A stretch of 64,000 bases of DNA from an uncultured archaeon (GCA_964558645.1 CAZLEV010000005.1:160001-224000), one strand, 5' to 3'. Numbered from the stretch's first letter, positions 14,743-44,918 are shown. Notes: generated from the sequence alone by a model not told the origin. A program made the numbers and translations.

Positions 14743-14893
14743 TGGAAAGGCTTAACGATGGTCGATATTGGGATGACTCGATAGAAGATACGCTACGAGA
14801 GCAGCAAAAAGAGAGGAAGGAGGGTCGTGACAGCGCTGCGGCCGACGACCGACACTACCCAGTCAGGCTATATCTGTGCCTGTCCAAGAACTC
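14743..14893. repeat. True nrdD 3' end and flank, homologous to 4386-4536 (tail also at 174 and 8912)
   Basis: Direct alignment; the plus strand carries a convergent ORF remnant LERLNDGRYWDDSIEDTLREQQKERKEGRDSAAADD. Confidence 0.9.
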
Positions 14894-28662: not shown

Positions 28663-29802
28663 TTATTTCATGCGCCTCGGTTTCCCCTTCAGCAGACCAA
28701 GACCTTTCTTGCACTGCCATAAGACGTAGAAGACTCGCTTGTCACGCAGGACCTCTGGATCATATTGACTACGAAGATCTTCAAATTTCTGGATAAGCTC
28801 ATTGCGTCTCGAGCCGCTTGTATCTGACTTGACCTCATCCAAGAGCTGCTCAAAAGGTTCCATCACACGATCCAGCTCGGCGATGTCCCAGCGGATGATG
28901 GCTCCACTACCATCAGAGGTCAAGAATCCTCGCTCATTGTGAATCCATTCGATTCCGTCGATCTCGCTATCTGTTGTGGCTTCACCCTCTACTCTGCCGG
29001 TCTCGAGGTTCCACACGAAGAGGTTCTTGTTGGCAGACCCAGACACCAAGTACTTGTTATCCGTACTGAACACAACGGAACGTACCTCCCCTGAGTGCCC
29101 CCGTAAGACACATTTCTTCGTTAGCTCTTCTCCTGAGGAGTTCCAGACGATGATATCGTGATCGGAGGACCCGGAAGCCACGAGAGAACCATCAACGGAG
29201 AAGCGGACAACCTGCACAGCGGTTCGATGCTCTTCAATCCATTGCTTCTTCTCGCCGGTATTACCATCCCACAAGCCGATTGATGCATCAACGCTTGCCG
29301 ACACTATTTTCTCGTTCACCGGAGACCATTCGCAGCTCACTACGTAGAGGGAATGACCCTTCATCCTGTGTATCTTCTCTCGATCATCAACATCCCAGAT
29401 GATCATGGTTGTATCGCCGCTCCCAGAGAGCAGCTTGCTGCCATCGGGTGAGAAAGAAAGTGACAGGACTGGGTAAGTGTGTCCTTCTAGCCTGGCCAAG
29501 CATTCACCGGTTCGTATATCCCAAAGCTTCACCACACGATCGACGCCACCTGATGCGATGATGTCGCCACGCGGGCTGAAGGCGATGGATGTGCAGAGAA
29601 ACTCATCCTGAAGGCGCTGAATCTCTTCACCGTTAGAGACATCGTATAGCCGAATAGCACGGTCTTGAGTAGCTGAGGCAATCATGCGCCCAACCTTATT
29701 CATTGCGAATCTACGAGTGATATCGCCAGCTACCTCTGCAGGAGGTTTCAATACCTTAGGTCGCAGGAAAAGGGTAATCTCTGGTCCTTCCATCTGGTTC
29801 AC
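28663..29802 (-). CDS. WD40 beta-propeller protein with C-terminal helical domain
   Basis: About 7 GH...[SF]SPDG...SGS.D..I.IWD repeats. Confidence 0.93.
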   Translation of the reverse strand: MNQMEGPEITLFLRPKVLKPPAEVAGDITRRFAMNKVGRMIASATQDRAIRLYDVSNGEEIQRLQDEFLCTSIAFSPRGDIIASGGVDRVVKLWDIRTGECLARLEGHTYPVLSLSFSPDGSKLLSGSGDTTMIIWDVDDREKIHRMKGHSLYVVSCEWSPVNEKIVSASVDASIGLWDGNTGEKKQWIEEHRTAVQVVRFSVDGSLVASGSSDHDIIVWNSSGEELTKKCVLRGHSGEVRSVVFSTDNKYLVSGSANKNLFVWNLETGRVEGEATTDSEIDGIEWIHNERGFLTSDGSGAIIRWDIAELDRVMEPFEQLLDEVKSDTSGSRRNELIQKFEDLRSQYDPEVLRDKRVFYVLWQCKKGLGLLKGKPRRMK

Positions 29803-29885: not shown

Positions 29886-30452
29886 CTACATCATGCCACC
29901 GTCTTCGAGAATCTTGATTGCCAGCTCCAAGAAAGAGGCCTCAACATTCTCTCCGGTCTTGGCAGAGGTCTCGATGAACGAAGATTGAACTCCCTGATTC
30001 CCAATGCTCTCGGCGAATGCCTGACCCTCCTCAGTTGTCACGATTGTCTGCTTCATGACAGGGTTGTCCTGGAACTGCTCCCTCAGGTCAATCTTGTTGC
30101 CTATGACCACGACAGGGATCTTCTTTCCTGCATTCTTCCAGCATTCATCAAGCCAGTTGGGCAGGTTCTCAAACGAGGCTCGTTCCACAGTAGAGTAGAC
30201 AGCAAGTGCGCCTTGAGCCCCTCGGTAGAACGTCGAACGGACGCTCTTGAAGTGCTCCTGGCCTGCAAGGTCCCAAATCTGGATACTCACATCGTGACCA
30301 CCCTCAAGGGACATCTTTTTCACGGCAAAGTCAGCACCAATAGTGATCATATAGCTCGCCCTGAAACCCTCGCCCATGTACGTTCTTCGTAGCGAGGTCT
30401 TCCCTACCGAGCCATCTCCCATGAGAACGATCTTGAACAACGCTGTAACCAT
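29886..30452 (-). CDS. Rab-like small GTPase
   Basis: GDGSVGKT, TIGADF, WDLAGQ, FYRGA, NKID, ETSAK. Confidence 0.93.
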   Translation of the reverse strand: MVTALFKIVLMGDGSVGKTSLRRTYMGEGFRASYMITIGADFAVKKMSLEGGHDVSIQIWDLAGQEHFKSVRSTFYRGAQGALAVYSTVERASFENLPNWLDECWKNAGKKIPVVVIGNKIDLREQFQDNPVMKQTIVTTEEGQAFAESIGNQGVQSSFIETSAKTGENVEASFLELAIKILEDGGMM

Positions 30453-30773: not shown

Positions 30774-31040
30774 ATGGGTCGCACAGCACGAACATTCAGA
30801 GATGCTCTTGATATCGAAGAAAGACGCTGGGAAGAATTCAGACGCACCCTGAGGGCCTCACAGAGAGGACTCCTTGACAGGGTCTTTGAAAAGGCACGAC
30901 AGCACGCTGATGCAGGTTCCATGATTATCACCCCCCGAATCATGGAGGTTGTTCTTGTAGCGGCATTGATGGAATTGACGGCAGACCTTGAGCGACTAGA
31001 TGGTCGACTCTCCCAGCTTGAACAGCAGCTTGGAAAATGA
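30774..31040 (+). CDS. Small helical protein of the PolB2 operon (arCOG07300/PPB2-like)
   Basis: MGRT..TFRD..IEE..RW..FRRTLR...DRVFEKAR.HADAG signature; ATGA overlap with polB2. Confidence 0.82.
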   Translation: MGRTARTFRDALDIEERRWEEFRRTLRASQRGLLDRVFEKARQHADAGSMIITPRIMEVVLVAALMELTADLERLDGRLSQLEQQLGK

Positions 31041-33316
31041 CGAAGATGAGAGAAATAGGATGGCTAATGGATGCCAGCATAGACACACAACAGCATGCTC
31101 TCACTCTGTGGATCAAGATCGGTGGTAAGACCCGGGGATACACCTATCACGACTTCAAGCCCTCGGTCTTTGTTTCCACCGATCTGTTGAAAGACGCTGA
31201 ATGGACCAAAGACAGAATCATAGGATTGGTGGAGGAACACCCTCTCGTTGTAGATTCGCAGGTGGTCCGGCGTTTCGTGGACGTATATGATGTTGAACCA
31301 CAAGAGGTCATTGAGGTGTTCTCATCCCCCGATTCGATTCGGGAGCTGGCCGAGGATCTGGAGAGGCTGCCAGGTGCAACGGTGTTCAACGCAGATATAG
31401 ATCCGATTCAGCAGTTCTTCATAACGCGAGAGATATTTCCCTTCGGACGAGTAGAGTTGCAATTCACCGAACAGACTGTCACCAACATCAGGTGTATCGA
31501 CAGTAGAGAGGCAGTTCAGTATGAGGTGCCATATCTCCGAGAGATTCGGATTGAGGTCTTTGTGGATACAGACAGGTTGTTTCCAAGATTGGAAGACCCG
31601 ATTCATCACATCGAGATAGAGAGCGACGGAGAGATCATCACCATAAAGGAGAGAAGCGAACGGGAAACCTTGGAGAGATTTCAGAGGACCATCGACGACA
31701 TAGACCCGGACATCATAGTGACACAGGGGGGTGACGAGGACCTGTTCCGCTATCTCACTATCAGATGCAGAGTCAATGATTTCGAGCTGGTTCTCTCCCG
31801 TGACGATACACCACTCCGGGTGCAATACCGTGAGCCGACCTCGTTCTGGCAATATAATAGAGTCGTGTACCGCTCCGGCAACCAAGTCATGTTCAACGGT
31901 AGAATGCATATCGATCGAACTGAAGGTTTCTCCTATTCCCCCTCGGGCATGGAAGGAATCATCGAGGGGTGTAGACTTGCATTTGCACAGCCTCAACGCG
32001 TTGCACGGATGTCTATTGGTGGGGTGAATGCTGCGGTTCAGTTCTATAATGCATATCAGATGGGGATGCTGATTCCACCAGTAAAGAGAAACCCTGAGTT
32101 TCTCAAGTCGGTCAATGAACTAGCCACTATCGACCGTGGAGGACTAATTCTTCAACCTCAACCTGATATCTATGAGAACATAGCAGAATGCGACTTCTCG
32201 TCCATGTATCCAACGCTCATGGTGACCCGGAACATAAGCCCCGAAACCATCTGCACACGGGAAGACTGCCCCTTTGACTACGAGCACTGTATAGAGGTAC
32301 CGGGTCTTAACTTCCGCCTGTGTAATCAGAAGCGTGGGATAGTAGCTAAGTCACTCGAACTGATTCTCAAGAAGAGGAAGGAGTTCAAGAGACTCATCCG
32401 AGAGGGAACGGACACTGCACGGTATGAGCGGATGCAAAACACTCTGAAGGGAATCCTGGTCTCCTGCTTCGGATACCTCGGGTTCAAGAATGCAAAGTTT
32501 GGACGAGTAGAGGCCCACACTGCAGTCACCGCACTGGCCAGAGATGTACTGCTAAGGACCCAAGAGATAGGAGAGGAGATGGGGCTGGAGATGGTTCACG
32601 GTATCGTAGACTCACTCTGGGTGAAGTCTGACAGCCCGATAGACTATGAGCATGTGAGGGACTTCTGCGAACGGGTCACAGAAACAGTGGGAATCGAAAT
32701 GTCATTGAAGGGCATCTATCGATGGATGGTGATTCCTTCGTCAAGACTTCATCCCACAATAGCTCCCTTGAACCGGTACTACGGCGTCTATAGAAATGGG
32801 GCGATAAAGACCAGAGGGATTGAAACGCGGCGGCGCGACACATGCCTCTATGTAGGGGACTGCCAACAGGAGATGATCAAGGTCCTTGCTCGTGGTAAGG
32901 ATAAGGAGGGGTTTCTCGACAGAATACCGGATGCATATGAGACGTGTAGAAGATACATACAAAGGCTCAATGAGGGGGATGTTGATATCCGGGATTTGAT
33001 TTTGAACTCCCGTCTGACCCGAGAGCCACAGGATTATCGGACAACCTCACGCGCCTCAATTGTTGCACAGCAGCTCATCAAGGCAGGAAGGGAGCTACAC
33101 GCCGGGCAAAAGGTACGATACATCATGGTGGATGCAAGTTCTCAGAATCCACTCAGGAGAGTGAAAGCTCTAGAACTTCTCAATAAGAACACGCATTACG
33201 ATGCCGCAGCCTATGCAACACTGTGTTTCAGAGCCTTTGAGAATCTGATACCGGCCCAGTACATCTCAAGAACTGAGGCGTATCCCGTGTATCAATATAC
33301 CAACCATGCTCACTGA
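31037..33316 (+). CDS. polB2: Family B DNA polymerase, PolB2 (Dpo2) type
   Basis: DFSSMYP, KGILVSCFGY, HGIVDSLW (instead of YGDTDS), RGIETRRRD; degenerate exonuclease domain. Confidence 0.9.
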   Translation: MTKMREIGWLMDASIDTQQHALTLWIKIGGKTRGYTYHDFKPSVFVSTDLLKDAEWTKDRIIGLVEEHPLVVDSQVVRRFVDVYDVEPQEVIEVFSSPDSIRELAEDLERLPGATVFNADIDPIQQFFITREIFPFGRVELQFTEQTVTNIRCIDSREAVQYEVPYLREIRIEVFVDTDRLFPRLEDPIHHIEIESDGEIITIKERSERETLERFQRTIDDIDPDIIVTQGGDEDLFRYLTIRCRVNDFELVLSRDDTPLRVQYREPTSFWQYNRVVYRSGNQVMFNGRMHIDRTEGFSYSPSGMEGIIEGCRLAFAQPQRVARMSIGGVNAAVQFYNAYQMGMLIPPVKRNPEFLKSVNELATIDRGGLILQPQPDIYENIAECDFSSMYPTLMVTRNISPETICTREDCPFDYEHCIEVPGLNFRLCNQKRGIVAKSLELILKKRKEFKRLIREGTDTARYERMQNTLKGILVSCFGYLGFKNAKFGRVEAHTAVTALARDVLLRTQEIGEEMGLEMVHGIVDSLWVKSDSPIDYEHVRDFCERVTETVGIEMSLKGIYRWMVIPSSRLHPTIAPLNRYYGVYRNGAIKTRGIETRRRDTCLYVGDCQQEMIKVLARGKDKEGFLDRIPDAYETCRRYIQRLNEGDVDIRDLILNSRLTREPQDYRTTSRASIVAQQLIKAGRELHAGQKVRYIMVDASSQNPLRRVKALELLNKNTHYDAAAYATLCFRAFENLIPAQYISRTEAYPVYQYTNHAH

Positions 33317-33318
33317 CA

Positions 33319-34665
33319 TCATTCGGTGACTGCATGTGCCTGCAGTGCCACTCGCGGCTTAAGCTCTCGCACAGGGATTCCCGTCTCCGCTGACACCTTC
33401 ATTATATCATCAGCCTCAGGCTTGATGTTGATTATGCTGCCGTCTGGTCCTCTTGATATCTTCACACGAACCATGTAGTCCTTATTATCGATCTCCAGCT
33501 TACAGACAATAGTCTCGCGGGCAGCCTTCAGACGTTGCCATGATGTGTACCGGATTCCCAGAGTACCTAGGTGACGAATCATGATTTCGGCAATGCTCTT
33601 CAGACCGGTCTTGGCTGCGATGACTTTGACCACAAAGCAGGGTCGATTCTTCTTACCATATGCCGGGATCATCACCACATCGTAGGCCAATCCCTCCGAG
33701 AGTAACGTGTCGAAGAGACTGCCCATGACTTCGCCATCAACGTCGTCTACATTTGCTTCAATCACAATAACGCTATCATCGTTCCATTGTTCAAACACTT
33801 CAGCCCTCTCCTCTCCACGAGTCGGCGGACTCACCACTTGAGAAGCCTTTCGTTCAGTCTTCTCAGAACTCTTGGGTTCTGGAGCCTCTGCAACGCCCTC
33901 TGCCTCCTTGAAATTGCCAAGGGATATCTTCATTCTGTTGGGAACTTCCCCAAGGTCGCGTGAGCCAAACCCGGTACCCTGTTGTGCAAGGACAAAATCC
34001 TCAGTCGAATCTACATACTCCTGAGCGAGGGATACCAGAAGGGCCGCTCCAGTGGGAGTCAGGATTTCAGTTTCGGCTTTGCCGGTGAGAAATGGAACAT
34101 CATGAGCAACCAATATCTCAGCCACTGCGGGAACTGGAACCTCCAGCTCGCCATGCTCGGTTTCGATGGTGCCACTGCCAACTGCAACTCTTGTCGCCAC
34201 AAATCTCACTTCATTCAGAAGGCCCATCTTCTCGAGGAGATACACTGTTCCGACAATATCTAGAACAGTATCAACTTGGCCAGTTTCGTGGAGGTGTAAC
34301 TGCTCAATAGGGGTATCGTGTGCGCGCACCTCGGCCTGAAGAATCTCATCCAGTGCCCTCTCTGCCAGCTTTGCTGCTGTCTTGGAGAGCTCGAGTTCCT
34401 CACAGACAGTCTGTAACACTTCCAGCATCGACTTCGGACTGAGTCGGATACCCTTGTCCCCCACGACCTCGAGTCGCTTACCGTTCACTCCAGCCTTTTC
34501 CTCTTGAACAACCTTGACACGCAGAGTCGGATCGTAGATAAGCAGGGCTGCAGCAACAGGCAACAAGGCATCGTCTTCTCCCATCAAATCGAGAAGAGCA
34601 GCTAGAAACATATCTCCTGATGCACCAGCTTCATGAACATCGATTAGAGCAGTCTTCTTGGTCAA
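33319..34665 (-). CDS. larC: Nickel pincer cofactor biosynthesis protein LarC
   Basis: GASGDM, HLHE, HG.L.VPVPAV, TPTGAA, EANVDD, KKNRP, GTLGIR; likely TTG start 34665. Confidence 0.9.
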   Translation of the reverse strand: MTKKTALIDVHEAGASGDMFLAALLDLMGEDDALLPVAAALLIYDPTLRVKVVQEEKAGVNGKRLEVVGDKGIRLSPKSMLEVLQTVCEELELSKTAAKLAERALDEILQAEVRAHDTPIEQLHLHETGQVDTVLDIVGTVYLLEKMGLLNEVRFVATRVAVGSGTIETEHGELEVPVPAVAEILVAHDVPFLTGKAETEILTPTGAALLVSLAQEYVDSTEDFVLAQQGTGFGSRDLGEVPNRMKISLGNFKEAEGVAEAPEPKSSEKTERKASQVVSPPTRGEERAEVFEQWNDDSVIVIEANVDDVDGEVMGSLFDTLLSEGLAYDVVMIPAYGKKNRPCFVVKVIAAKTGLKSIAEIMIRHLGTLGIRYTSWQRLKAARETIVCKLEIDNKDYMVRVKISRGPDGSIINIKPEADDIMKVSAETGIPVRELKPRVALQAHAVTE

Positions 34666-34831
34666 TGGAATTGGTTCTCCTTTCTTTAGAGGTCTGCAAC
34701 TGCAGGCTGACACTGCAATCCTTTTCTTTCTTTCGCAGTCAGGAGTCAGGACGTAACACGACAAGGTCAATCCGTTCTTAAATAAAAACCTGCGACGGGG
34801 ACAGTCACTGTGATTAGTGCTTCACTGTGGC

Positions 34832-35611
34832 CTATTCAGCCATGCCCCGTCTCCATTGTTCGAAGATTGCCATGTACATGCACTCAGCAGGGCTTATCCA
34901 CATTGCAGACGAATCAAAGGCCTCGTCAACCAGTTCGACTGGGGCATCACGAATAAGCACAGCAGGTATAGACTCGTCAGACTCGCCCATAAGCACGGTA
35001 CATGCAGATGCCAAGTTGTCTGCCACTGCTCTGCGAGTTATACGGAGCTCGTTGCCGAAGAGATCTCTACGTCCTCGGTCGTCCATGACAGGCCGAAATC
35101 CGGCCACGCCTAGGGCCATCCCAATATTGCCGAGCCTGAGAGGTTGCGTCCTGCTGTCAATGATGATCACTCCAAGCCTCAATCCCCATCGTCCCAGAAT
35201 TTCTTGACGGATTCGAGCAGCACTGGCCTTTGCATCGACTGGCAAGAGCGAGGCATAACCAGCCGGAACGTTTGACTTGTCAACCCCAGCATTCGCCATG
35301 AGGGTATTGTTCTTGATGGTCAATACAACACGAGGAATACCACCAAGAATCTCATCCGCCTCATCTAGTACCAGCTGTGCCACTGCAGGAAGGATGTCAT
35401 ACTTCGTGCCTAGATTGCGAGCCTCATCAGTCACACTGACATCGTTCAATCTAACAACCCTACCTTCAGTCGTCCCCAACGGAGTCTCGGCAATGCCCAT
35501 GATGTCACCCTCCTTGGGGTCGAGATCTTGGGACTTCATGGATTGCGAAATCACGCTGAGGAAGTCATCTTCTCTTGTGATGGTACGAGTCTTTATCGGA
35601 AATAGTTCCAA
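34832..35611 (-). CDS. cofE: Coenzyme F420-0:gamma-glutamyl ligase
   Basis: EGRVV.L, ANAGVDKSN, LLP.D...SA, GVIIIDS...PLRLG, DLFGNEL, MGE.DE.IP. Confidence 0.92.
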   Translation of the reverse strand: MELFPIKTRTITREDDFLSVISQSMKSQDLDPKEGDIMGIAETPLGTTEGRVVRLNDVSVTDEARNLGTKYDILPAVAQLVLDEADEILGGIPRVVLTIKNNTLMANAGVDKSNVPAGYASLLPVDAKASAARIRQEILGRWGLRLGVIIIDSRTQPLRLGNIGMALGVAGFRPVMDDRGRRDLFGNELRITRRAVADNLASACTVLMGESDESIPAVLIRDAPVELVDEAFDSSAMWISPAECMYMAIFEQWRRGMAE

Positions 35612-35700
35612 TGCACAGCCTCAATACTTCCGCGAGGAGAACTGCAAATAAAGCATACCTATCTCTCAGTCGGCTATATCATGGTGCAAGACGATGGAGA

Positions 35701-37116
35701 CTATTCTCTCTGAAGCTTCATCCGCGCACCCATTATACACGAGTCCCCTCTTCGACCGCCCATCGGATTCTCTCGCGTCCCCATTGAGTTCATGCATCTA
35801 GCGGTCACAGCAGCACCCATGGCGAGCCCGTCCTCGACAAATACAACCTGGCGTGATGGTTCCGGAGGCATCAGCTTGCCACTCAGGAGTTCAGCAAGAA
35901 GAAGGGCCGGTTTCTGCCCTGTCACGAGTGCCCGTCCTGTTAGCCCAAAAGAGGTTTCAGGGCGCACCAGTTTCCTGAAGTCACAGATGCTTATCAAGCG
36001 ATATGCCAGTCGGGCCATCAGCAGGTCCACGACAGCCAAGAATAGACCTTTTCCGCCCTCCTCGACTATCTCAAAACCATGTCGTGACAACAGAGGCAAG
36101 TCTGAACCATTGTCGCCAACGTCTATGCCGATGAGCAGGGTCCCGGACTCGGCGGCTGCATCGGTATTAACAGGAACTGTACCGTACTGCTCCACTCCAT
36201 CTGGAACCTCCTCAATCTGGATTATCTTCTCAAGACGCTCAACCCATTGCTCTACCTTCAGATCAGTAGTCCTTGTGGATTGCGATGACAAATCGAGCAT
36301 GACTGCATCAGTTCTGCTCGAGAGTCCTGACCCCTTTGCCAGAGCATCAGGAATGGCCCCTGCAAGCCCTGCGAATGAACCAGTAGTATGAGCATAGGGA
36401 TAAGAGTCATCAACGACTCTTCCAGCAAGAGTTGTCCCAAAGTCCAACGTGAGAACAGGATTTCGAAAGTCGATATCTGTGCCTTTGACAGCACCTTTGA
36501 TTCCTGCAGTGACCAGCTCCCCTTCCATCTCATTTGCCACGATTTCTGTATTCGCTGGGGGAAGGCAGCTTGCGACGGCTCCATCGAAATACACCTTCTT
36601 AAGCCAAGTGTACCCTCGAACGCCTGGAGGGAGATTCTCAGGAGACAGCGATGCAGTCATCTTTCGCGGTGGAACACCAGCATCAAGACAGCCCTGTGCC
36701 AGCGCCTTGATTATGCAGTGGACTTCTTGTGGCGTCGTGAATCCTGCATTTATGCCTGTAGACCTGACCACGAAGTGAATGTCATTCTCTATGTCGAGCT
36801 TGGCCTTTGATACTGCACTTGTGAGGAGGTCAGCAACCATCTCAGTGACGGAGTTCTCTGTCAATGGCACGCCTGTGATTGTTTCTCCAAAGCTCGACTC
36901 GTCGTCTCCTGGCGGACGAATGTCCCGTGTCATGCGTACCTCTTTTGCCACCTCAAAGATCTCGGCAGTCTCGAGATTGGTGGCCACTATGATGCACTTG
37001 GTGGTCGTATTTCCCAGCTCTACTGACACAACCGTATAGAATGGACCAACCTTCAGTGAGGATGCACTGATTCTTCGAGGATGTACTATTTCAGGTCTCA
37101 TCAGTGTCAACACCAT
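35701..37116 (-). CDS. Methanogenesis marker 14 (DUF2114) family protein, ASKHA-fold
   Basis: SVELGNTTTKCI, FVVRSTG, ANEMEGELVTAGIK, DFGTTLAG, DGLA.GAAV.ARCMNS.G; directly downstream of mtrH. Confidence 0.85.
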   Translation of the reverse strand: MVLTLMRPEIVHPRRISASSLKVGPFYTVVSVELGNTTTKCIIVATNLETAEIFEVAKEVRMTRDIRPPGDDESSFGETITGVPLTENSVTEMVADLLTSAVSKAKLDIENDIHFVVRSTGINAGFTTPQEVHCIIKALAQGCLDAGVPPRKMTASLSPENLPPGVRGYTWLKKVYFDGAVASCLPPANTEIVANEMEGELVTAGIKGAVKGTDIDFRNPVLTLDFGTTLAGRVVDDSYPYAHTTGSFAGLAGAIPDALAKGSGLSSRTDAVMLDLSSQSTRTTDLKVEQWVERLEKIIQIEEVPDGVEQYGTVPVNTDAAAESGTLLIGIDVGDNGSDLPLLSRHGFEIVEEGGKGLFLAVVDLLMARLAYRLISICDFRKLVRPETSFGLTGRALVTGQKPALLLAELLSGKLMPPEPSRQVVFVEDGLAMGAAVTARCMNSMGTRENPMGGRRGDSCIMGARMKLQRE

Positions 37117-37123
37117 CAGTTTG

Positions 37124-38059
37124 TCAGAGTAGTTTCTTGAATGGGTGTTCGTTGGAGGGTTCAATGCCAAGCTCGGCCTTGACAGACTCCGCGGTGAAAA
37201 TGTCAGCCATACTAGCTACAGGAAAGACACGTTTTGCATTGTTCAGCGGCCCGTAGAGGACGAAATCAGCACCCATCATCTGGAGCATCAGACTGGAGGC
37301 AACATCGCAAATCATGTAAGCCTCCTTGTCTACCTTCTTTCGGTTCTTCAGCCAGGTCCAAGATGCCGGTGCATTGTGGATTCCTGATCCGGTAGGCAAC
37401 CCGTAGACAGACTTCGAAACAAAGGTGAAGGCCACTGCAGAACCTGCACCAGCACCCATGGCTGTGGTTGCGGTATCGATAAGCGGCTTCTGAACGCCAA
37501 CCTCCTTCGCAAGGGCAAGAAGACCCGAAGAACTATCGTCGATTCCGGTATCCAACACTGCCCTCCGTCCGCCGATGGAAGAATCACGAGGATTGAATGC
37601 AAGGATGATAGCTGATTCTGGACCGATCGCATCAATCGCTTCGAGTTCTTTGCTCTCCACGGAAACACTGATTGAATTGTAGATTGCTCTGTCAAGGCAG
37701 CCAATCTCCTCAGCGTGTCGAAGCCCTGCCACTCGAACTTCAGATTCTGTTGAATCAATCAGGAAGGGGACATCAGAGACCTCAGTGACAAAATCAATGA
37801 ACTTGCACATGGCCTCATCGGTCTGTGAGCATATCTGTAACATACAGGGATTCCCCGTGATCTCGGACATCTCTTCTTGGGTAGCTATCTGCTCTTCTGC
37901 CTTCGCCCTGTCGAAGCTGCCCTTCTTGGCGTCTTCCAGCAGTTTGTCTCCATGATAGAAGATTGTGCCCACAAGAACAGTTGGCAACTCACCAGGCGAA
38001 CCTCCTATCTCGACATCACCGATTCTGTGGATGACCTGTTCTTTCTCAAATACAAACAT
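37124..38059 (-). CDS. mtrH: Methyl-pterin:corrinoid methyltransferase MtrH family
   Basis: MFVFEKEQ...GGSPGELPTVL.GTIFY, PFLIDST, RAIYNS, G.P.GSGIHN.P.SW.WL, GADFVLYGP. Confidence 0.95.
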   Translation of the reverse strand: MFVFEKEQVIHRIGDVEIGGSPGELPTVLVGTIFYHGDKLLEDAKKGSFDRAKAEEQIATQEEMSEITGNPCMLQICSQTDEAMCKFIDFVTEVSDVPFLIDSTESEVRVAGLRHAEEIGCLDRAIYNSISVSVESKELEAIDAIGPESAIILAFNPRDSSIGGRRAVLDTGIDDSSSGLLALAKEVGVQKPLIDTATTAMGAGAGSAVAFTFVSKSVYGLPTGSGIHNAPASWTWLKNRKKVDKEAYMICDVASSLMLQMMGADFVLYGPLNNAKRVFPVASMADIFTAESVKAELGIEPSNEHPFKKLL

Positions 38060-38061
38060 AT

Positions 38062-38766
38062 CTACATCTCCTTTCCAATCAAGACAGTACCAGACTCCAT
38101 CTCGCGAACTTCAATTCCCACATTGGTGGGATGTAGTGAAAGAGAAGCTCCCAGAGCAAACTGCTCCAAAAGAGATGTCATCGGGTCCAAGTATACATCA
38201 AACTCCGGAAGGACGGCAATTCCTGCACCGAGGGTTCTATGAGCGGCACGTTCGGCCTCCACAGTGAACTCCACCCAGAAAGGACCCTCAGGAAACGGGC
38301 CAATCTGGTGAGCAAGAAGAGATTCAGCCTCATCACGAATCGTGTCCGGGTCTGTAACGTTCATCAAGTCGATGAGTTGCACTTGCCCTCTGAATCGGTC
38401 TATTGCCTCCATTGGAATGTTCTCAATATAGGGGATTGCACCCGGCGCATTCAGAATCTTTCGATTGTCGTGGCTGACACCATATTGATGGAGACAGCTC
38501 AATGATGCACCCGTCCTATGTCCCGGTACTTCTGGACCACAGAGAATGAGATATCGGATGTTTGGATTCGAGATGATATTGACGACCACACGCTCAATGC
38601 CAATATTCTCGGTCTTGCATGTCCCGATTATGGCATACCTGCTGTTGACTTCAATCTTCTTCCCCAGAGTGCATATGGCAACACTCAGCGATGGATCACC
38701 TACTTCAAAATCTCCAGCAACAACAGGCCAATCTCGAGTGTTTTGTTCACCAGACATCTTCTTCAC
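38062..38766 (-). CDS. mtrA: Soluble MtrA corrinoid protein (no TM anchor) with MtrB-like C-terminal segment
   Basis: WP.V.GD..VGDP, KTENIGIE, NIISNPNIR, EVPGH (Co ligand), GAIPYIEN; no hydrophobic C-terminal helix. Confidence 0.92.
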   Translation of the reverse strand: MKKMSGEQNTRDWPVVAGDFEVGDPSLSVAICTLGKKIEVNSRYAIIGTCKTENIGIERVVVNIISNPNIRYLILCGPEVPGHRTGASLSCLHQYGVSHDNRKILNAPGAIPYIENIPMEAIDRFRGQVQLIDLMNVTDPDTIRDEAESLLAHQIGPFPEGPFWVEFTVEAERAAHRTLGAGIAVLPEFDVYLDPMTSLLEQFALGASLSLHPTNVGIEVREMESGTVLIGKEM

Positions 38767-38768
38767 CT

Positions 38769-39686
38769 TTAGGTGTACGTTGGGGGATCAAACAGCTCTG
38801 CATCGCGTCCAAGAGTCCGACTGGCCTCAGCAACAGCTGTTGCCAGTGCGTTCCCAATCAATGCAACAGCTGCATATACTTCCTTTGTACGGACCATTGA
38901 CCCATACATTATGCAGTCAGTAGCAAACAGCTGGGCTGCAACGGTTGATGCAACAACCGTAGAGAGATGAGTAATCTCATCATCTAAGCCCTCTTGGCGT
39001 ATGAACTTCCAAGCCGATGGCGCATTGTGGGGACCAAGACAGGTGGGGAGGCCTAGCTCGGACTTGATGGCAAGAATTGTCCTGTACTCAAGACCGTATC
39101 CTGCACCGACTGGTAGAGTTGCGGGATCCACCAACACTTTCTCAACGGCCATTGAGTGGGAGTCTTCGAGCATCTTCTTGACGGTGTCCATTCGGTCGGA
39201 TAAGTTGGTTGCACGTGGAGACCAACCCAGAACAACAGCCATGTTCAACGAGCTCTCTCGAAGCAACGCTTTCTCATCATCCTTCATCGAGAGATTGATT
39301 GAGTTGTAGATTGCTCGATCAGAGAGACCGGTCTCATCACAGTATTCAATTCCGCGTTTTCGGGCTTTCGCACTGGTAGACTCGAACATAAAGGGGCCCT
39401 CGAAGGAATCAGCAAGCCAAGAGATGTGCTTCTCCATCGCCTCAGGTGTCCGCCCGAATGCCTGAATCACGAGGGGATGACCCGTTCGTTCCTCCATTTC
39501 CACGCCGGTGGCAATCCAGTCAGAGGCCAGTTCCTCATTAAACAATCCCTGTTTCGTGTTCTCCACAATTGGCTGCCCCTTGAAAAAGAGACCACCTATG
39601 AGGACGGTGGGGTTCTCTCCGGGCTGACCGCCTATGGTCACACCGCCGAAATCGTATGATACCTGGTTCTTCTTGAACACGAACAT
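38769..39686 (-). CDS. mtrH: Second, divergent MtrH paralog
   Basis: MFVFKKNQ, GGQPGENPTVL, RAIYNSIN, HNAPSAW; PFMFES replaces PFLIDS; ATG 39686 after ggtga. Confidence 0.88.
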   Translation of the reverse strand: MFVFKKNQVSYDFGGVTIGGQPGENPTVLIGGLFFKGQPIVENTKQGLFNEELASDWIATGVEMEERTGHPLVIQAFGRTPEAMEKHISWLADSFEGPFMFESTSAKARKRGIEYCDETGLSDRAIYNSINLSMKDDEKALLRESSLNMAVVLGWSPRATNLSDRMDTVKKMLEDSHSMAVEKVLVDPATLPVGAGYGLEYRTILAIKSELGLPTCLGPHNAPSAWKFIRQEGLDDEITHLSTVVASTVAAQLFATDCIMYGSMVRTKEVYAAVALIGNALATAVAEASRTLGRDAELFDPPTYT

Positions 39687-39696
39687 AACGACTCTT

Positions 39697-40671
39697 TCAC
39701 CTAGGTCTTGGGTAGAGGCCTGCACCTTTAACTAGTTCGGGGATTGCGCTCTCCCAGCCCACGCCCATGATATGAATCCCATCCACTCCGTTTATCTTAC
39801 GAATGTTTTCGATTGTTTCTGAGGCCATAAGGAGTCCCTCTGCTCTAACAGCTTCGCGCTTGTCAGCACCCTTTAGACCTCTCCCTGCCTCATCAAGCCG
39901 GGAAATCATAGAATCGGGAATCTTAATGCCAGGAATGCGCTTGTTCATGAATCTGGCCATCTTAGGACCCTTCAGAGGGATGATTCCAGCTAGGACTCCA
40001 GCATCAAGTCCTTCGATGCCCTTCATAAACTCCTGCAGACGGCTTGTATCATAGATGGCCTGGGTCTGAAAGAACCTAGCCCCCGCTGCCTGTTTCTTCT
40101 CAGTCCGCCAGATATGCATCTCAAGGGGATCAGCATAGGGATTGAAAGTAGCTCCGATGAAGAATGTTGGAGTCCCCTCCAGTTCTTGCCCGGAGAGGTC
40201 TGTTCCGTGCATAAGATGCTTGGTAACCTGTAGCGCTTGGATAGAGTCCATGTCAAAGACCATCTTTGCCTCTGGATGGGATCCGAGCAGAGTATGATCG
40301 CCTGTGATGAACATGAGATTACGCACGCCGAGCGCGTAGGCGCCATAGAGCTCGCTCTCAAACAGGATTCGGTTCCTGTCTCTCGCAGACATCTGCATTA
40401 TGGGCTCGGCCCCAGCCTGAAGAATGAAATGGGCACAGACCATGCTGCTCATTGTCGGTATACCCCGAACGTTATCAGTGATGTTGATTGCATCACAGTA
40501 TTCAGCAACCAGATGGGTGTGCTCACGGATTATGTTGGCGTCGGAACCATGAGGAGGTGTGATCTCACCTGTTACAACGAACTCATTGTTCTCAAGTAGG
40601 GAATCTAGATGACTGATTGGCAGGTTTGATTTCTCCAGATTATTTGCTTGCACCAGAGCGACTCTCTCCAC
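39697..40671 (-). CDS. metF: 5,10-methylenetetrahydrofolate reductase MetF
   Basis: GEITPP, NITDN, RDRNRI, ITGDH, K..AGARFFQTQ, GIHIM. Confidence 0.92.
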   Translation of the reverse strand: MERVALVQANNLEKSNLPISHLDSLLENNEFVVTGEITPPHGSDANIIREHTHLVAEYCDAINITDNVRGIPTMSSMVCAHFILQAGAEPIMQMSARDRNRILFESELYGAYALGVRNLMFITGDHTLLGSHPEAKMVFDMDSIQALQVTKHLMHGTDLSGQELEGTPTFFIGATFNPYADPLEMHIWRTEKKQAAGARFFQTQAIYDTSRLQEFMKGIEGLDAGVLAGIIPLKGPKMARFMNKRIPGIKIPDSMISRLDEAGRGLKGADKREAVRAEGLLMASETIENIRKINGVDGIHIMGVGWESAIPELVKGAGLYPRPR

Positions 40672-40750
40672 CCTTATTTCATTTCCGAGCCCAAGAGATG
40701 TCAGTCACCATGTCGTACGCACGCTTCTAAGATGCAGCGCAGGACGATGT

Positions 40751-41410
40751 CTAGAAGAAAGCTCCGTGTTCAAGCTTTCGAGGACCGCGAGCAAGGCTCC
40801 AGTCCTTGAGGGCCCAAATCTTCTTGATATTCTCTTCTTTCCCGAGAGCCTTGAGGCGGTCGTATATCAACTGCCATACACACTCAGTATCTTCATCTCT
40901 CTCGCACATACCATCCATTGAACCACCACACGGACCATTCAAGATGCCCTTGGCACAGCGCGCGATGGGGCAGATGCCCCCTGTAAGATCAAGGATGCAT
41001 TCTCCACACATGACACACTGCTCATGATGGTGAAATCTCTCGGGCATGTTTCCAAGAAACTCAGAGTCAGTTGCAGGGAACGATTCTTTCTCAGAATGCA
41101 GCTGAGTTAGTGTCTGGGTAGCAACGCCGCATGCTTGAACAAGGAAGGCATCGGCCTTCTCAACAATCTCTTTGTTCGCTTCGAGTTCTTGCTTGAACGC
41201 ATTGATATCACACATTCCGCCCTCAACGAAGACGTATCCAAGCACCTCCTTGCCATTCTCTTCAAGGAAGTCACCCATGTCCTCAAGCTGAAGGATGCCC
41301 CCAACGTCACACATCTGTGCGCAGCCAGAGTCTCCAAACAGGACAATGCGATGTTTCCCTTCTAGCATCTCGAGAATCTTCTCGGGCGATTTCAGTTCCA
41401 TGACAATCAA
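40751..41410 (-). CDS. metV: MetV (Fe-S/Zn partner subunit of MetF)
   Basis: GCAQMC..GG, ACGV.TQ, C.MCGEC.L..TGGICPI.RCAKG.LNGPCGG...CE...CVW; likely TTG start 41410. Confidence 0.9.
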   Translation of the reverse strand: MIVMELKSPEKILEMLEGKHRIVLFGDSGCAQMCDVGGILQLEDMGDFLEENGKEVLGYVFVEGGMCDINAFKQELEANKEIVEKADAFLVQACGVATQTLTQLHSEKESFPATDSEFLGNMPERFHHHEQCVMCGECILDLTGGICPIARCAKGILNGPCGGSMDGMCERDEDTECVWQLIYDRLKALGKEENIKKIWALKDWSLARGPRKLEHGAFF

Positions 41411-41477: not shown

Positions 41478-42782
41478 TCATTCACTAGGCACAAATCGCT
41501 CCATTCTCTTGAGAGCGCCTTCAGGCAGCATCGTGAACAAGCGTTGGACAGTATCATAGCTGAGACGTGCTTCCACAGTGATTACATTCTCGCCAAATTC
41601 TTCTTTCTCCACATGACCGTTATCGTGCAACCAGGACAGCATTGCCATTCCCGATGACTCGTAGGGAATAGTGACATGGTATCTGTGAAGGACCGGTAAA
41701 CTGCGTCTGACTTCAAGAATCAGTTCTTCAAGGTTCGTTTCTTCCTTTGCGGATATTGGAACAACAGCACGCCCGATATCTTGCAGCATAGTCATCCGTT
41801 CACGTACAGAGATGTCCTCCACAAGGTCAATCTTATTCAGGGCCACTACCAGAGGAATGCCATTCACCCCAATCTCCTTGAAAGTGTCAATACAGGCGCC
41901 GACCTTCCGATTCATCTCATAGACCGAGTCACTGGCATCCACCACCAGAACGATGACGTCAGCGTTCCCAATCTCCATGAGAGTAGTATTGAAGGCATCA
42001 AGAAGCTCAGGTGGGAGATCACTGATGAAACCTACAGAGTCGCTTACCACGACCTGTCGGCCAGGAATGTCAAGGCGCCGGGTCTTCGTTGATAGCGTTG
42101 TGAATAGCTGGTCGGCGACCTTTACCTCGGAACCTGTAAGAGTGCGGTGCAGAGTGCTCTTTCCTGCATTGGTATAGCCTGTCAGAGTCACTTCCAAGAA
42201 GCCGACCTTCGACCTTCTCTTTCGTTTCAATTCCTGAATATCGGATATCTTTTCTAGTTTGGAACGAATGGTGGCAATGCGTCTACGAAGTTCCATGGTT
42301 CGGATATTCAGCAGGTCTTCTCCTGCACCCACTTGTTCTCCCACAGGTCGGGCACCAGTGTGTTCACTCTGAAGTTGTATGCGTAGCTGATGTCGGATAA
42401 AGGGGAGCTCATACTCAAGTCGCGCTTGTTCAATCTGCAGCTTGGCCTGGGGTGTCCTTGCGTGCTTACCGAATATCTCGAGTATCAGCTGGTTTCTATC
42501 ACGAACCTCAACATCCCATTTCTCCATGAGGCGATACATCTGACTGGACTTCAATTTGGGGGAGAAGAGTACAACATCAGGTTTGCTGATATCAATATGA
42601 GTTGCAATCTCTTCGACCTTGCCCGATGATATGGCAAAACGAGCCGATTTCGGACCCACAATATCCATTGCCTCGACCACAGTATAACCCGCGGTCTCAG
42701 CTAGTGCCTGGAATTCATCCAGAAGATCATGTTCGCCGTATTCTCGGCTCTGAACCAGGAGAGCTCTCAGGGATTCCATCAT
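41478..42782 (-). CDS. hflX: GTPase HflX
   Basis: DR.QLILEIF..HART..AKLQIE.A.L.YELP, GYTNAGKST, LFTTL, DSVGFI, NKID. Confidence 0.95.
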   Translation of the reverse strand: MMESLRALLVQSREYGEHDLLDEFQALAETAGYTVVEAMDIVGPKSARFAISSGKVEEIATHIDISKPDVVLFSPKLKSSQMYRLMEKWDVEVRDRNQLILEIFGKHARTPQAKLQIEQARLEYELPFIRHQLRIQLQSEHTGARPVGEQVGAGEDLLNIRTMELRRRIATIRSKLEKISDIQELKRKRRSKVGFLEVTLTGYTNAGKSTLHRTLTGSEVKVADQLFTTLSTKTRRLDIPGRQVVVSDSVGFISDLPPELLDAFNTTLMEIGNADVIVLVVDASDSVYEMNRKVGACIDTFKEIGVNGIPLVVALNKIDLVEDISVRERMTMLQDIGRAVVPISAKEETNLEELILEVRRSLPVLHRYHVTIPYESSGMAMLSWLHDNGHVEKEEFGENVITVEARLSYDTVQRLFTMLPEGALKRMERFVPSE

Positions 42783-42884: not shown

Positions 42885-44918
42885 ATGGAACACTTTGAGA
42901 TAAAGAACAAGGACTTTCTTGCAAGGTTGGGCAGATTCTCAACAAGGCACGGGGATGTTGACACACCACTTCTCATGCCCGTTATCCATCCGGGTAGATC
43001 CGAGATCAGGCCGCGACAGCTAAGAGAGCAGTTTGGCTACCAGATGGTTATCACTAATTCATACATCATCAAGTCAAAGCAGGAATTCCGCGAGCGAGCC
43101 CTTCAGGAGGGAGTCCATGGCCTGCTGGACTTCGATGGGCCAATAATGACTGACTCTGGTACATTCCAGATGTACTTCCATGGGCTGCCGGAGGGAGAGA
43201 TCGATCCCTTGGACATAGTGCGGTTCCAAAGGGAGATTGGCAGTGACGTTGGGACCATTCTTGATGTGTTTTCTGAACCTGATGCGGGGAAGATGAGGGT
43301 TGAAGGGGATGTAAATACGTCGCTAGAGAGAGCTAGAAAATCCGTAGCGGAGAAGGGCGACATGTACTTAGCAGGTACTGTCCAAGGCGGAGTCTACGAA
43401 GACCTGAGGAGGAGGGCTGCACATGAAATGGCCGCCTTAGATATCGAGATTCACCCGATAGGGGGTGTTGTTCCGCTGATGGAACGATATAGATTTGCTG
43501 ATGTCATCAGAGCAACTCTTGCTGCGAAGAGTCGACTTCCCCCGAATAGGCCAATACATCTCTTTGGATGTGGGCATCCGATGTTCATGGCCATCGCAGC
43601 CTTAGCCGGATGTGATTTCTTCGATTCGGCCTCCTATGCAAAGTTCGCCGATGCCGGCAGAGTTCTGTTACCAACGGGCACAGTGCATCTGGAGAACCTG
43701 CGTGAACTGCCCTGCGATTGCCCGGTGTGTAGTGGAACCACTGCAGATGATTTGAAACAATTGCCGGAGAAAGAACGTGTGACGGCCCTCATGCGCCACA
43801 ACCTTTACGTGACGGCATCTGAGATGCGACGAATACGTCAGTATATCGTTGACGGAAAGCTCATCGAGTTGGCTTCGGCCCGAGCCCGAGGTCATCCTAC
43901 CCTTCAGGAGGCCCTTCAAGTCATCATAAACAGTCAGGCAATGCTTGAAGAGAATGACCCTGTTGGGAAGGGCGCGTCTATCTTCTACACTGGCCCCGAA
44001 ACAGCAATCCACCCGGCCTTTGTCAGACAGCATCTTAGAATCATGAGACGGTATCCCTATTGGACCACAGATACACTGCTTCTTGTCCCCCATTTGGGAG
44101 ATCGCCCCTTTTCTGATACAACAGGGCAGATAGCCGATGCTGTTCGAGCGGTTGCCCCAGAGCGTGCCATCCTAGTCTACGTAACACCCTTCGGTGTGGT
44201 GCCACTGGAGCTTGAGCATGCATATCCTGCCCAACAGACCCTATTCCCAACAACAATCGACGCCTATACGGTAGATACAGCCAAAGCGCGGGTACTAGAA
44301 CTAGTAGAGAAGATGCGATTCAGGAAGGCATACTGGTTCCTGAGGGATGTATATACAAGCACGTTTCTCTCAGCAGTCACTCCTGTCATCGACATCGAAA
44401 CTCTTGACAGCGCAACCGCCGTGGCCGAAGTCATTCCGAGGGAAGACGAGAAGAAGGAGGATGCTTTGAGAAAACTCCGTGCACTCTTCGCCTATCAATG
44501 GGAAATCGATGTTTCGGACACCTTCCTGAAGAGTTTGGAGGTCGTTTACTCAAGGTCAACGGGAAAGATACGCCATCTTAAGCGCGAGGGAGATATTCTC
44601 TTCACCGTCGTGCCAACAACAGGGATGCTTACCCCCACATTCGAAGGGGGCCTCGAACTTCTTGTTCAGGACATCCCGGGAGAGTATATCGTCACAATGG
44701 AGGAAGAAGCCTCGATGTTTGTTGCTGCAGGGAAGTCCGCATTGGCCAAGTTCGTGACAAACGCAAGCCACACACTGCGGGCAGGCGAAGAAACTCTCAT
44801 TGTTGACCCAGCAGGAGATCTTGTCGGAGTGGGGAAGGCAATCCTGAATGGCCGCGAAATGCTGGCATTCGATAGAGGCGTAGCAGTGATGACTAGGCAC
44901 TCGAAGAAGCGCGGCTAG
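42885..44918 (+). CDS. tgtA: tRNA-guanine(15) transglycosylase (archaeosine) with PUA domain
   Basis: TPLLMPV, MTDSGTFQ, VQGG, HLFGCGHP, DFFDSA, CDCPVC...HN Zn site, C-terminal PUA. Confidence 0.95.
   Translation: MEHFEIKNKDFLARLGRFSTRHGDVDTPLLMPVIHPGRSEIRPRQLREQFGYQMVITNSYIIKSKQEFRERALQEGVHGLLDFDGPIMTDSGTFQMYFHGLPEGEIDPLDIVRFQREIGSDVGTILDVFSEPDAGKMRVEGDVNTSLERARKSVAEKGDMYLAGTVQGGVYEDLRRRAAHEMAALDIEIHPIGGVVPLMERYRFADVIRATLAAKSRLPPNRPIHLFGCGHPMFMAIAALAGCDFFDSASYAKFADAGRVLLPTGTVHLENLRELPCDCPVCSGTTADDLKQLPEKERVTALMRHNLYVTASEMRRIRQYIVDGKLIELASARARGHPTLQEALQVIINSQAMLEENDPVGKGASIFYTGPETAIHPAFVRQHLRIMRRYPYWTTDTLLLVPHLGDRPFSDTTGQIADAVRAVAPERAILVYVTPFGVVPLELEHAYPAQQTLFPTTIDAYTVDTAKARVLELVEKMRFRKAYWFLRDVYTSTFLSAVTPVIDIETLDSATAVAEVIPREDEKKEDALRKLRALFAYQWEIDVSDTFLKSLEVVYSRSTGKIRHLKREGDILFTVVPTTGMLTPTFEGGLELLVQDIPGEYIVTMEEEASMFVAAGKSALAKFVTNASHTLRAGEETLIVDPAGDLVGVGKAILNGREMLAFDRGVAVMTRHSKKRG

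What the first reader, a model, noticed from the sequence alone, without database searches (positions are those of the whole stretch)
34832..41410. metV-metF-mtrH'-mtrA-mtrH-marker14(-cofE): candidate soluble methyl bridge between folate and methanopterin C1 pools
Seen: a tight operon with MetVF, two clearly different MtrH paralogs flanking one MtrA that has no membrane anchor, then marker 14 and cofE. No mtrCDE or mcr genes in the window. Established: MetVF makes or oxidises methyl-H4folate in acetogens; MtrH moves methyl between a methyl-pterin and the MtrA corrinoid; Na+ pumping and CoM methylation need MtrCDE. Inference: one MtrH serves methyl-H4folate and the other H4MPT, with MtrA as shuttle, giving a methyl-H4F:H4MPT transmethylase that joins bacterial- and archaeal-type Wood-Ljungdahl methyl branches in a non-methanogen. 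Alternative: the two MtrH form a heterodimer with one non-catalytic copy (PFMFES vs PFLIDS), or one takes a methylated substrate.
Basis: partly seen in the sequence, partly recalled or inferred. Interest (0 to 1): 0.85.

Follow-up and report, generated by a model that had tools for sequence, protein, structure and literature searches.

The report
Soluble Mtr-derived methyl shuttle, Thorarchaeia
An Asgard archaeon (Thorarchaeia) keeps a membrane-free, rebuilt piece of the methanogens' vitamin-B12 methyl-transfer pump, wired to a folate-pathway reductase; the machine is real and family-wide, but its far-side partner is unknown, and the proposed folate-to-methanopterin bridge is possible, not shown.

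Summary
Observation confirmed: metV-metF-mtrH'-mtrA-mtrH-marker14-cofE, gaps of 2-89 nt, in a Thorarchaeia genome where MtrC/D/E and Mcr were not found. The H'-type gene is in 76 of 86 family genomes and one other Asgard genome. MtrAH plus marker 14 in Thorarchaeia is published as a methanogenesis remnant, and this scan noted the operon before in other genomes.

New here: (1) MtrA's tail is the MtrB N-terminal hairpin that docks MtrH; the Glu-Arg docking pair survives with H' only. (2) H' keeps the pterin-binding Gln/Asn/Asp/His-Asn, with fixed D103E. Like MetF, it evolves faster where metV is lost (7/7 contrasts); MtrH, MtrA and marker 14 do not. So H' looks like the MetVF-side transferase. 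(3) Marker 14 has an ASKHA fold.

Against a bridge between two Wood-Ljungdahl branches: this genome has deleted mer and shows no ACS. The methanopterin gene mptG was not found in 60 of 61 relatives. Genomes without Mer, ACS and Mtd keep the operon unrelaxed. Both MtrH derive from canonical MtrH, not folate-type MtgA.

Best reading (0.4): MetVF-coupled soluble methyl hub with an unidentified outlet. Folate-methanopterin bridge: 0.3.

The parts
40751..41401 (-). metV, Fe-S/Zn partner subunit of MetVF-type methylene-pterin reductase (216 aa)
   Evidence: PF12225 114 bits; single copy; nearly mutually exclusive with ACS in the family
39697..40671 (-). metF, the only MTHFR-family gene found in the genome (324 aa, start uncertain)
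   Evidence: PF02219; one match per genome in 56/61; Glu/Asp/Gln motif residues kept
38769..39686 (-). mtrH' (H1), diverged MtrH paralogue, 305 aa. Keeps N129, D196, H229, N230 (all 35) and Q75 (33/35); fixed T32G and D103E, near-fixed Y35F/H38Q; keeps R211 (own R202); lacks the K242/K243 patch
   Evidence: rate tied to metV presence; numbering of M. mazei MtrH from PMC12774963
38062..38757 (-). mtrA, soluble cobamide-binding subunit (231 aa) with the axial His (own H80) invariant and no membrane anchor
   Evidence: PF04208; alignment; model matches 5LAA/9QTR at about 1 A over about 155 residues; hydropathy
38158..38220 (-). MtrB-like N-terminal docking hairpin fused into the MtrA tail (residues 180-200; invariant P184-E185, aligned to MtrB P8-E9)
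   Evidence: top PDB hit 8q3v_B MtrB, E 0.012; Pfam MtrB in 8/30 members; hhalign 94%, E 1e-7, on the pre-cut hairpin and E 2.6e-4 on the whole tail
37124..38059 (-). mtrH (H2), canonical-type MtrH, 311 aa. Keeps T32, Y35, Q75, D103, N129, D196, H229, N230 and the basic patch; lost R211
   Evidence: TIGR01114 373 bits, over the cut-off
35701..37113 (-). methanogenesis marker 14 (DUF2114, m26): ASKHA-fold protein, probable ATPase; candidate activator or chaperone of the MtrA cobamide (inference)
   Evidence: TIGR03285 570 bits; model pLDDT 79; fold searches return ASKHA proteins, RACo 3ZYY at rank 2 among many
34832..35611 (-). cofE-like gamma-glutamyl ligase; possibly a FolC substitute rather than the F420 ligase (inference)
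   Evidence: weakest of three paralogues against CofE (186 vs 225 and 273 bits) and best against TIGR04132 (103 vs 83, far below its cut-off of 350); FolC not found with an E. coli query; precedent CT611 (PMC1971073)

Best explanation
A soluble, rebuilt remnant of the methanogen Mtr complex, coupled to MetVF. MtrA lost its membrane stalk and gained MtrB's MtrH-docking hairpin (shown by sequence). This tethers its cobamide domain by a flexible linker to one MtrH dimer, most likely an H'/H heterodimer (inferred). H' exchanges methyl between the methyl-pterin made or oxidised by MetVF (most likely methyl-H4folate, the only carrier whose synthesis genes were found) and the MtrA cobamide (inferred from kept pocket residues and rate coupling). 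Marker 14 is an ASKHA ATPase that probably activates or loads the cobamide (inferred). The methyl on MtrA then leaves to, or arrives from, a partner outside the Mer/ACS branch that is not yet identified. Thiol-methylating MtaA/CmuA-type enzymes are the best candidates in this genome. With MetV the reductive direction, an electron sink for ACS-less fermenters, is the likelier one (inferred from the redox potential recalled from the literature). Where a second pterin pool exists, the same machine could also equilibrate the two.
For: MtrB hairpin. Docking pair: MtrB Glu9 binds MtrH Arg211 (PMC12774963); Glu185 of the tail is invariant; Arg is in 35/35 H' and 0/33 H; the acidic position 5 is kept in H (31/33) and is Lys in H' (33/35). 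H' pocket kept. Rate coupling: between-genus identity falls from 69 to 59% (H') and from 65.5 to 48% (MetF) where metV is lost, while MtrA, H, marker 14 and five neighbours do not move; 7/7 sister contrasts for H', 2/7 for H. Relaxed H' sites include loops that contact MtrA (PMC10998594). In this genome no AcsE/MetH pterin domain, MetE, Hcy-methyltransferase or CdhD/E was found, so the two MtrH are the only recognised handlers of MetF's methyl product. The module stays under full constraint without Mer, ACS and Mtd. Two MtaA/CmuA-like genes flank a corrinoid protein on C7.
Against: No outlet is shown. MtaC-type corrinoid proteins were not found in three good genomes that keep the operon (G014, G017, G021), and no enzyme is known to take methyl from MtrA to an MtaA-type acceptor. 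H keeps a complete canonical pterin pocket that this reading leaves without a clear separate substrate. The closed chromosome CP070761.1 and G015 lack metVF yet keep H'. Which pterin MetF and H' use cannot be read from sequence. The sister contrasts share outgroups, one is only +0.02 and one sister pairing is unresolved in the tree.
Confidence: 0.4

Rival explanations
1. One reading: a methyl-H4F:H4MPT transmethylase. H' serves folate, H serves a (salvaged) methanopterin, and MtrA swings between the two sites, joining MetVF to Mer or to ACS.
For: H keeps the basic patch proposed to bind the methanopterin tail (PMC12774963) and H' has lost it but keeps the basic residue matching MtgA Arg236 (PMC7154762). 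H' tracks MetVF and H does not. 34 of 42 metF-bearing genomes at least 85% complete have Mer or ACS, and ten have ACS without Mer, all with metF. The one non-Thorarchaeia genome with H'-A-H has mptG. The mer loss in this genome is recent: the sister species keeps it.
Against: mptG not found in 60/61 family genomes. This genome shows neither Mer nor ACS. Six genomes lack Mer, ACS and Mtd, four of them have mch without ftr/fwdC beside it, and in five H and MtrA are not relaxed. H' has Gln75 like canonical MtrH, not Asp75 like MtgA, and nests in the canonical clade. A polyglutamyl folate could also use the basic patch.
Confidence: 0.3
2. One carrier only. MetVF is a Mer substitute on the same pterin that Mch/Mtd/Mer/CdhDE use (as proposed for ANME-1), and H'/H is a specialised heterodimer with one main catalytic site feeding MtrA.
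For: mptG not found while DHPS and MptE-like genes are present. MetF is absent where Mer is present in the closed genome. ANME-1-type MetF branches with Asgard sequences and was proposed to act on H4MPT (PMC9012536). In Mtr only the proximal MtrH is thought to serve MtrA (PMC12774963). One docking hairpin suggests one dimer.
Against: Both copies keep invariant pterin-binding residues, and H' but not H tracks metV, which implies different jobs. Whether this MetF is ANME-1-type was not tested.
Confidence: 0.2
3. H' is a dead or purely structural subunit, or H' is a substrate-specific demethylase (MT1) for a non-carrier methylated compound, with H as the only pterin transferase.
For: D103E is fixed, and D102A abolishes MtgA activity (PMC7154762). 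H' sits on a long branch and holds the docking Arg.
Against: N129, D196, H229 and N230 are invariant in 35 H'. H' is more conserved than H among metV genomes (69 vs 62%). Asp to Glu keeps the acid and comes with T32G.
Confidence: 0.1

Closest known systems
Thorarchaeia 'canonical MtrAH' plus marker m26/DUF2114, described as methanogenesis remnants (Adam et al. 2022, PMC9635834)
   Same: Same genes and lineage; function stated there as unclear, hypothesised to funnel methyl into the Wood-Ljungdahl pathway.
   Different: In the passages searched there is no mention of a second MtrH, the MtrB fragment on MtrA, the metVF link, the near exclusion of metV and ACS, or missing mptG.
Membrane Mtr complex MtrABCDEFGH of methanogens (PDB 9QTS, 8Q3V; PMC12774963, PMC10998594)
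   Same: MtrA fold and His ligand, canonical MtrH pocket in H, MtrB N-terminal hairpin with the Glu-Arg docking pair, marker 14 as neighbour.
   Different: No MtrCDE/F/G or membrane anchors found, so no CoM site or Na+ pumping; two diverged MtrH instead of a homodimer; MtrB piece fused to MtrA.
MtgA of Desulfitobacterium hafniense and MT2-type MtrH relatives (PDB 6SJ8; PMC7154762)
   Same: Same TIM-barrel family; cobamide-to-pterin methyl transfer; basic residue at the Arg236 position.
   Different: H' and H have Gln/His75, not Asp75, score far below the MtgA cut-off (163 and 200 vs 550) and lie in the canonical MtrH clade. Some relatives carry a separate Asp75-type third MtrH beside corrinoid and activator genes.
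MtxXAH of some methanogens (PMC3087415) and MtrAH fusions of Atabeyarchaeia/Freyarchaeia (PMC11291895)
   Same: Soluble MtrA- and MtrH-like parts without the membrane subunits; function unresolved.
   Different: One MtrH; MtrA only 34-37% identical to this one; no MtxX here; fusions sit beside a thyA-like gene, not metVF.
MetVF of acetogens and ANME-1 (PMC8515935, PMC8760232 by abstract; PMC9012536)
   Same: metV-metF pair with the conserved MTHFR motif residues.
   Different: No rnfC2 or hdr-mvhD beside it; linked to Mtr subunits; metV mostly lost where ACS is present.

Membership tests
Energy-conserving Mtr complex | Membrane subunits MtrC, D, E (CoM and Na+ sites) | tested here: not met
   PF04206 no match; phmmer with MtrC/D/E finds nothing; genome 92.8% complete
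Energy-conserving Mtr complex | MtrA with a membrane anchor in an MtrABFG stalk | tested here: not met
   no hydrophobic helix; tail is beta-hairpins; no separate MtrB/F/G found
Energy-conserving Mtr complex | MtrA cobamide domain with axial His | tested here: met
   H80 invariant in 29; fold match to 5LAA/9QTR
Energy-conserving Mtr complex | MtrH with D103, N129, D196, N230 and basic tail patch | tested here: met
   H keeps all; over the TIGR01114 cut-off. H' has D103E and no patch
MtgA-type (folate) MT2 | Asp75/Asp102 pair and placement with MtgA-like proteins | tested here: not met
   Gln75 in H' and H; both in the canonical clade (SH-aLRT 90 and 99, quick tree); NF047990 163 and 200 bits vs cut-off 550
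H4F:H4MPT methyl bridge (proposed) | Folate branch enzymes present | tested here: met
   Fhs, FolD, FTCD, GcvT/H, GlyA-like, DHPS, MetVF
H4F:H4MPT methyl bridge (proposed) | A producer or consumer of methyl-H4MPT (Mer or CdhDE/ACS) in the genome | tested here: not met
   mer reduced to a stub inside an intact contig; CdhC and CdhD/E not found. Met in 34 of 42 metF-bearing relatives
H4F:H4MPT methyl bridge (proposed) | Methanopterin synthesis (beta-RFAP synthase) or salvage | tested here: inconclusive
   mptG not found in 60/61 family genomes, found in 51/121 across the phylum; salvage cannot be tested
H4F:H4MPT methyl bridge (proposed) | Different pterin specificity of the two MtrH | not testable with these tools
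   only indirect: pocket differences and rate coupling
ANME-1-type MetF (Mer substitute) | Phylogenetic placement with ANME-1 MetF | not tested
   no ANME-1 sequences could be fetched; the atlas look-up gave only generic MTHFR clusters
RACE/RACo corrinoid activators (for marker 14) | ASKHA ATPase fold | tested here: met
RACE/RACo corrinoid activators (for marker 14) | Specific likeness to RACo, with its Fe-S domain | tested here: inconclusive
   3ZYY is rank 2 in Foldseek but tied with unrelated ASKHA proteins (TM 0.34); kinases and activators tie in VIA-align; a true RACo-like gene lies elsewhere
CofE (F420 ligase) versus FolC2 (CT611-type) | Score over the curated family cut-off | tested here: inconclusive
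   186 vs cut-off 181 for TIGR01916; 103 vs 350 for TIGR04132; two paralogues fit CofE better

The most novel reading that the evidence does not exclude
A soluble heterodimeric MtrH'/MtrH enzyme, tethered to an MtrA-MtrB(N) fusion, moves methyl groups directly between tetrahydrofolate and a methanopterin-type carrier. It would be the first described enzyme linking the two C1 pools at the methyl level, built from the wreck of the methanogen Na+ pump in an Asgard lineage.
Probability: 0.3. Interest if true: 0.85.

Novelty: new variant of a known kind. Interest (0 to 1): 0.6.

Why it matters
What MtrAH does outside methanogens is an open question in the literature. This operon makes it testable with five or six soluble proteins, and gives concrete predictions: a heterodimer, docking through MtrA Glu185 and H' Arg202, and H' as the MetVF-side enzyme. 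The fused MtrB hairpin indicates that Thorarchaeia descend from a carrier of a fuller Mtr complex and rebuilt it rather than letting it decay. Marker 14, kept with only the soluble subunits, is narrowed to an ASKHA protein likely acting on MtrA or MtrH, which bears on methanogens too. The patchy ACS, Mer and Mtd and the missing mptG also question the common statement that Thorarchaeia run two Wood-Ljungdahl pathways.

Tried and rejected
Complex prediction of H + H' + MtrA tail gave no verdict (score 0.30, mark 0.32); it is not used as evidence either way.

A second MtrB-like repeat in the tail (which would suggest two homodimers) was rejected: no match to MtrB or to the first hairpin. An MtrB profile built only from Methanobrevibacter-like sequences does not rank this genome's tail in a whole-proteome search, so the homology rests on profile-level matches and context.

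H' as an MtgA orthologue: rejected. The Mer-like luciferase-family gene on C2 as a hidden Mer: rejected; 186 bits against a cut-off of 349, in a conserved AOR-linked cluster. Missing mer as an assembly gap: rejected; the flanking genes are contiguous. MtrA as donor for a core methionine synthase (PMC7857596): no PF01717 or PF02574 match here. H/H' as MT2 for outside corrinoid systems: weakened, since such clusters bring their own third MtrH in G011, G026, G031; MttB not found here.

The metV/ACS exclusion is not significant once kinship is counted (4 same, 0 opposite, 3 tied; p 0.125). Marker 14 could not be pinned to RACo or DdrA. The promoter/terminator scan was at chance level. Liu et al. 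2018 was not held. The non-Thorarchaeia genome G045 could not be named.
Full report
Observation. They match MetV, MetF, MtrH (twice), MtrA, marker 14 and CofE families. The two MtrH are 36% identical. Close homologues are named Candidatus Thorarchaeota. The assembly is 92.8% complete; MtrE, McrA and the other Mtr membrane subunits were not found. MtrA was found in 36/36 family genomes first searched. The order H'-A-H-marker14 holds in every locus long enough to show it. An H' profile finds the H' type in 76 of 86 family genomes and in one other Asgard genome among 400 searched.

MtrA. The cobamide domain is canonical: His80 is invariant and the model overlays 5LAA/9QTR at about 1 A. There is no membrane helix. 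The last 70 residues form two beta-hairpins (low confidence there). The first is the N-terminal hairpin of MtrB: best PDB hit is MtrB (E 0.012), Pfam MtrB is the only family hit by several members (8/30), and profile comparison gives E 2.6e-4 for the whole tail and 94% probability for the cut-out hairpin. In M. mazei this stretch docks the MtrH dimer through MtrB Arg5-MtrH Asp5 and MtrB Glu9-MtrH Arg211 (PMC12774963). The tail's invariant Glu185 aligns with Glu9. Arg211 is kept in 35/35 H' and in no H, while position 5 is acidic in H and Lys in H'. The second hairpin is not MtrB-like. One docking site with split contacts is most simply read as an H'/H heterodimer tethered to MtrA. This is inference; acidic position 5 is also common in MtrH relatives without MtrB.

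The two MtrH. H keeps all pocket residues of canonical MtrH and the basic patch proposed to bind the methanopterin tail. H' keeps N129, D196, H229, N230 in all 35 sequences and Q75 in 33, with fixed T32G and D103E and no patch. D102A kills MtgA (PMC7154762), but Glu keeps the acid. Both copies lie in the clade of true MtrH, whose members sit in mtrF-G-H or mtrE-H operons, apart from the Asp75 MtgA-like majority. So H' is a remodelled MtrH, not an imported folate enzyme. Where metV is lost, MetF and H' diverge faster (65.5 to 48% and 69 to 59%), while H, MtrA, marker 14 and five neighbours do not. Sister contrasts agree in 7/7 for H' and 2/7 for H; they share outgroups, so this is support, not a clean test. 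Relaxed H' sites (23 against 6 tightened; 2 against 4 in H) include loops that contact MtrA (PMC10998594). H' is therefore best read as the active, MetVF-side transferase.

Genome context. The folate side is rich: Fhs, FolD and FTCD together, GcvT/H beside DHPS and an MptE-like gene, a GlyA homologue. Methanopterin-type Ftr, FwdC-like, Mch and Mtd are present. But mer is deleted in place, leaving a stub between intact neighbours, while the sister species keeps it. CdhC, CdhD/E, AcsE/MetH pterin domains, MetE, Hcy-methyltransferase and MttB were not found. Across 61 family genomes: Fhs 57, Mch 57, MetF 56, Mtd 39, Mer 32 over the cut-off, MetV 28 (one in a probable contaminant cluster), CdhC 23, mptG 1. 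Other Asgard families have mptG. Among 45 genomes at least 85% complete, 22 have metV only, 17 ACS only and one both; with kinship counted this is not significant. Six lack Mer, ACS and Mtd; five of them were compared and show no relaxation of any operon gene. A closed chromosome (CP070761.1) lacks metVF but keeps H'-A-H-marker14.

Accessory genes. Marker 14 folds as an ASKHA protein; RACo is among the top matches but not distinguishable from kinases. Its retention with only soluble subunits points to a target on MtrA or MtrH (inference). The cofE-like gene is the weakest of three paralogues as an F420 ligase, FolC was not found, and a CofE homologue replaces FolC in Chlamydia (PMC1971073); a folate glutamylase role is possible.

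Mechanism. Shown: gene set, conservation, MtrB fragment, residue patterns, rate coupling, absences in the searched genomes. Inferred: MetVF interconverts methylene- and methyl-pterin; H' passes the methyl to or from the tethered MtrA cobamide; H is the dimer partner with a second pterin site; marker 14 maintains the cobamide. The far-side partner is unknown. Because constraint persists without Mer, ACS and Mtd, I put a MetVF-coupled methyl hub with an outlet outside those branches at 0.4, the folate-methanopterin bridge at 0.3, a single-carrier Mer substitute at 0.2, and a dead or MT1-type H' at 0.1.

Known work. MtrAH and m26 (DUF2114) in Thorarchaeia are published as remnants of unclear function (PMC9635834); both pterin branches and patchy cdh in Thorarchaeota are noted (PMC6737245). 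My paper searches found no report of the second MtrH, the MtrA-MtrB fusion or the metVF coupling, though the library is incomplete. Earlier notes of this scan describe the same operon in other genomes; none matched the hairpin/heterodimer words. Verdict: real, a new variant of a known kind, first reading partly supported, interest 0.6.

Noticed in passing
G000 contig C24:17337-17429 (outside the window): mer is deleted in place, leaving a short 5' stub between intact neighbours; the sister species has the whole gene. Mer has been lost many times in the family (10 changes on a 32-genome tree).
   Followed up: yes
family-wide: metV and acetyl-CoA synthase are nearly mutually exclusive in Thorarchaeia, with within-genus exceptions (G031, G036, G012); most genera lack ACS.
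   Followed up: partly
family-wide; L110: beta-RFAP synthase was not found in 60/61 Thorarchaeia although Mch is in 57/61. The one copy (G008) sits among Thorarchaeia-like genes. Mch stands without ftr/fwdC in four genomes checked and may work on folate.
   Followed up: partly
window 19282-19905 (+); L072:5722-8505; L090:4028-6871: A methanogen-type thymidylate synthase (TIGR03283) lies 15 kb from the operon. In other Asgard the MtrAH fusion is directly followed by a longer thyA-like gene, a possible functional link.
   Followed up: partly
G000 C7:142962-145989 (L075): Two MtaA/CmuA-like methyltransferases flank a corrinoid protein, with no MttB or pterin-binding MT2 beside them; a candidate outlet or inlet for MtrA methyl.
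   Followed up: partly
G000 C6:146185-148115 (L109): DHPS with a C-terminal extension of about 130 aa beside MptE-like and gcvT/gcvH genes; FolA and FolC not found. The extension may be a pteroate-reductase domain (recalled resemblance, untested).
   Followed up: partly
G000 C5:94755-96494 and C3:15066-16331: RACo/RamA-like corrinoid activator homologues exist apart from marker 14.
   Followed up: no
L196, L200, L201: Some Thorarchaeia carry a third, Asp75-type MtrH beside a corrinoid protein (with an activator gene in two of the three).
   Followed up: partly
L065 (G045:C86): One Asgard genome outside the family has H'-mtrA(with hairpin)-H, plus mptG and a separate MtrAH fusion; the contig ends before any metF.
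   Followed up: partly
L088:1851-4048: An unnamed metagenome contig has a canonical-clade mtrH directly followed by marker 14, with no mtrA just upstream.
   Followed up: no
L111 (G062:C133): A bacterial-type metF-metV-activator-corrinoid-AcsE-MttB cluster in a Thorarchaeia bin, probably contamination.
   Followed up: partly
window 28111-28653 (+), 29886-30452 (-), 28663-29802 (-): Two Rab-like small GTPases around a WD40 protein, typical Asgard eukaryote-signature genes (judged from motifs).
   Followed up: no
L035, L037, L043, L047, L056, L059: Genes for proteins resembling ABC peptide-binding proteins are repeatedly inserted between metV (or hflX) and metF in several genera.
   Followed up: no
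window 14855-18598 (-), 21256-23337 (+), 31037-33316 (+), 33319-34770 (-), 41478-42782 (-), 42885-44918 (+): Housekeeping neighbours: ATP-cone ribonucleotide reductase-like, EF-2-like, PolB, LarC, HflX, TgtA. The last four are syntenic across the family.
   Followed up: partly
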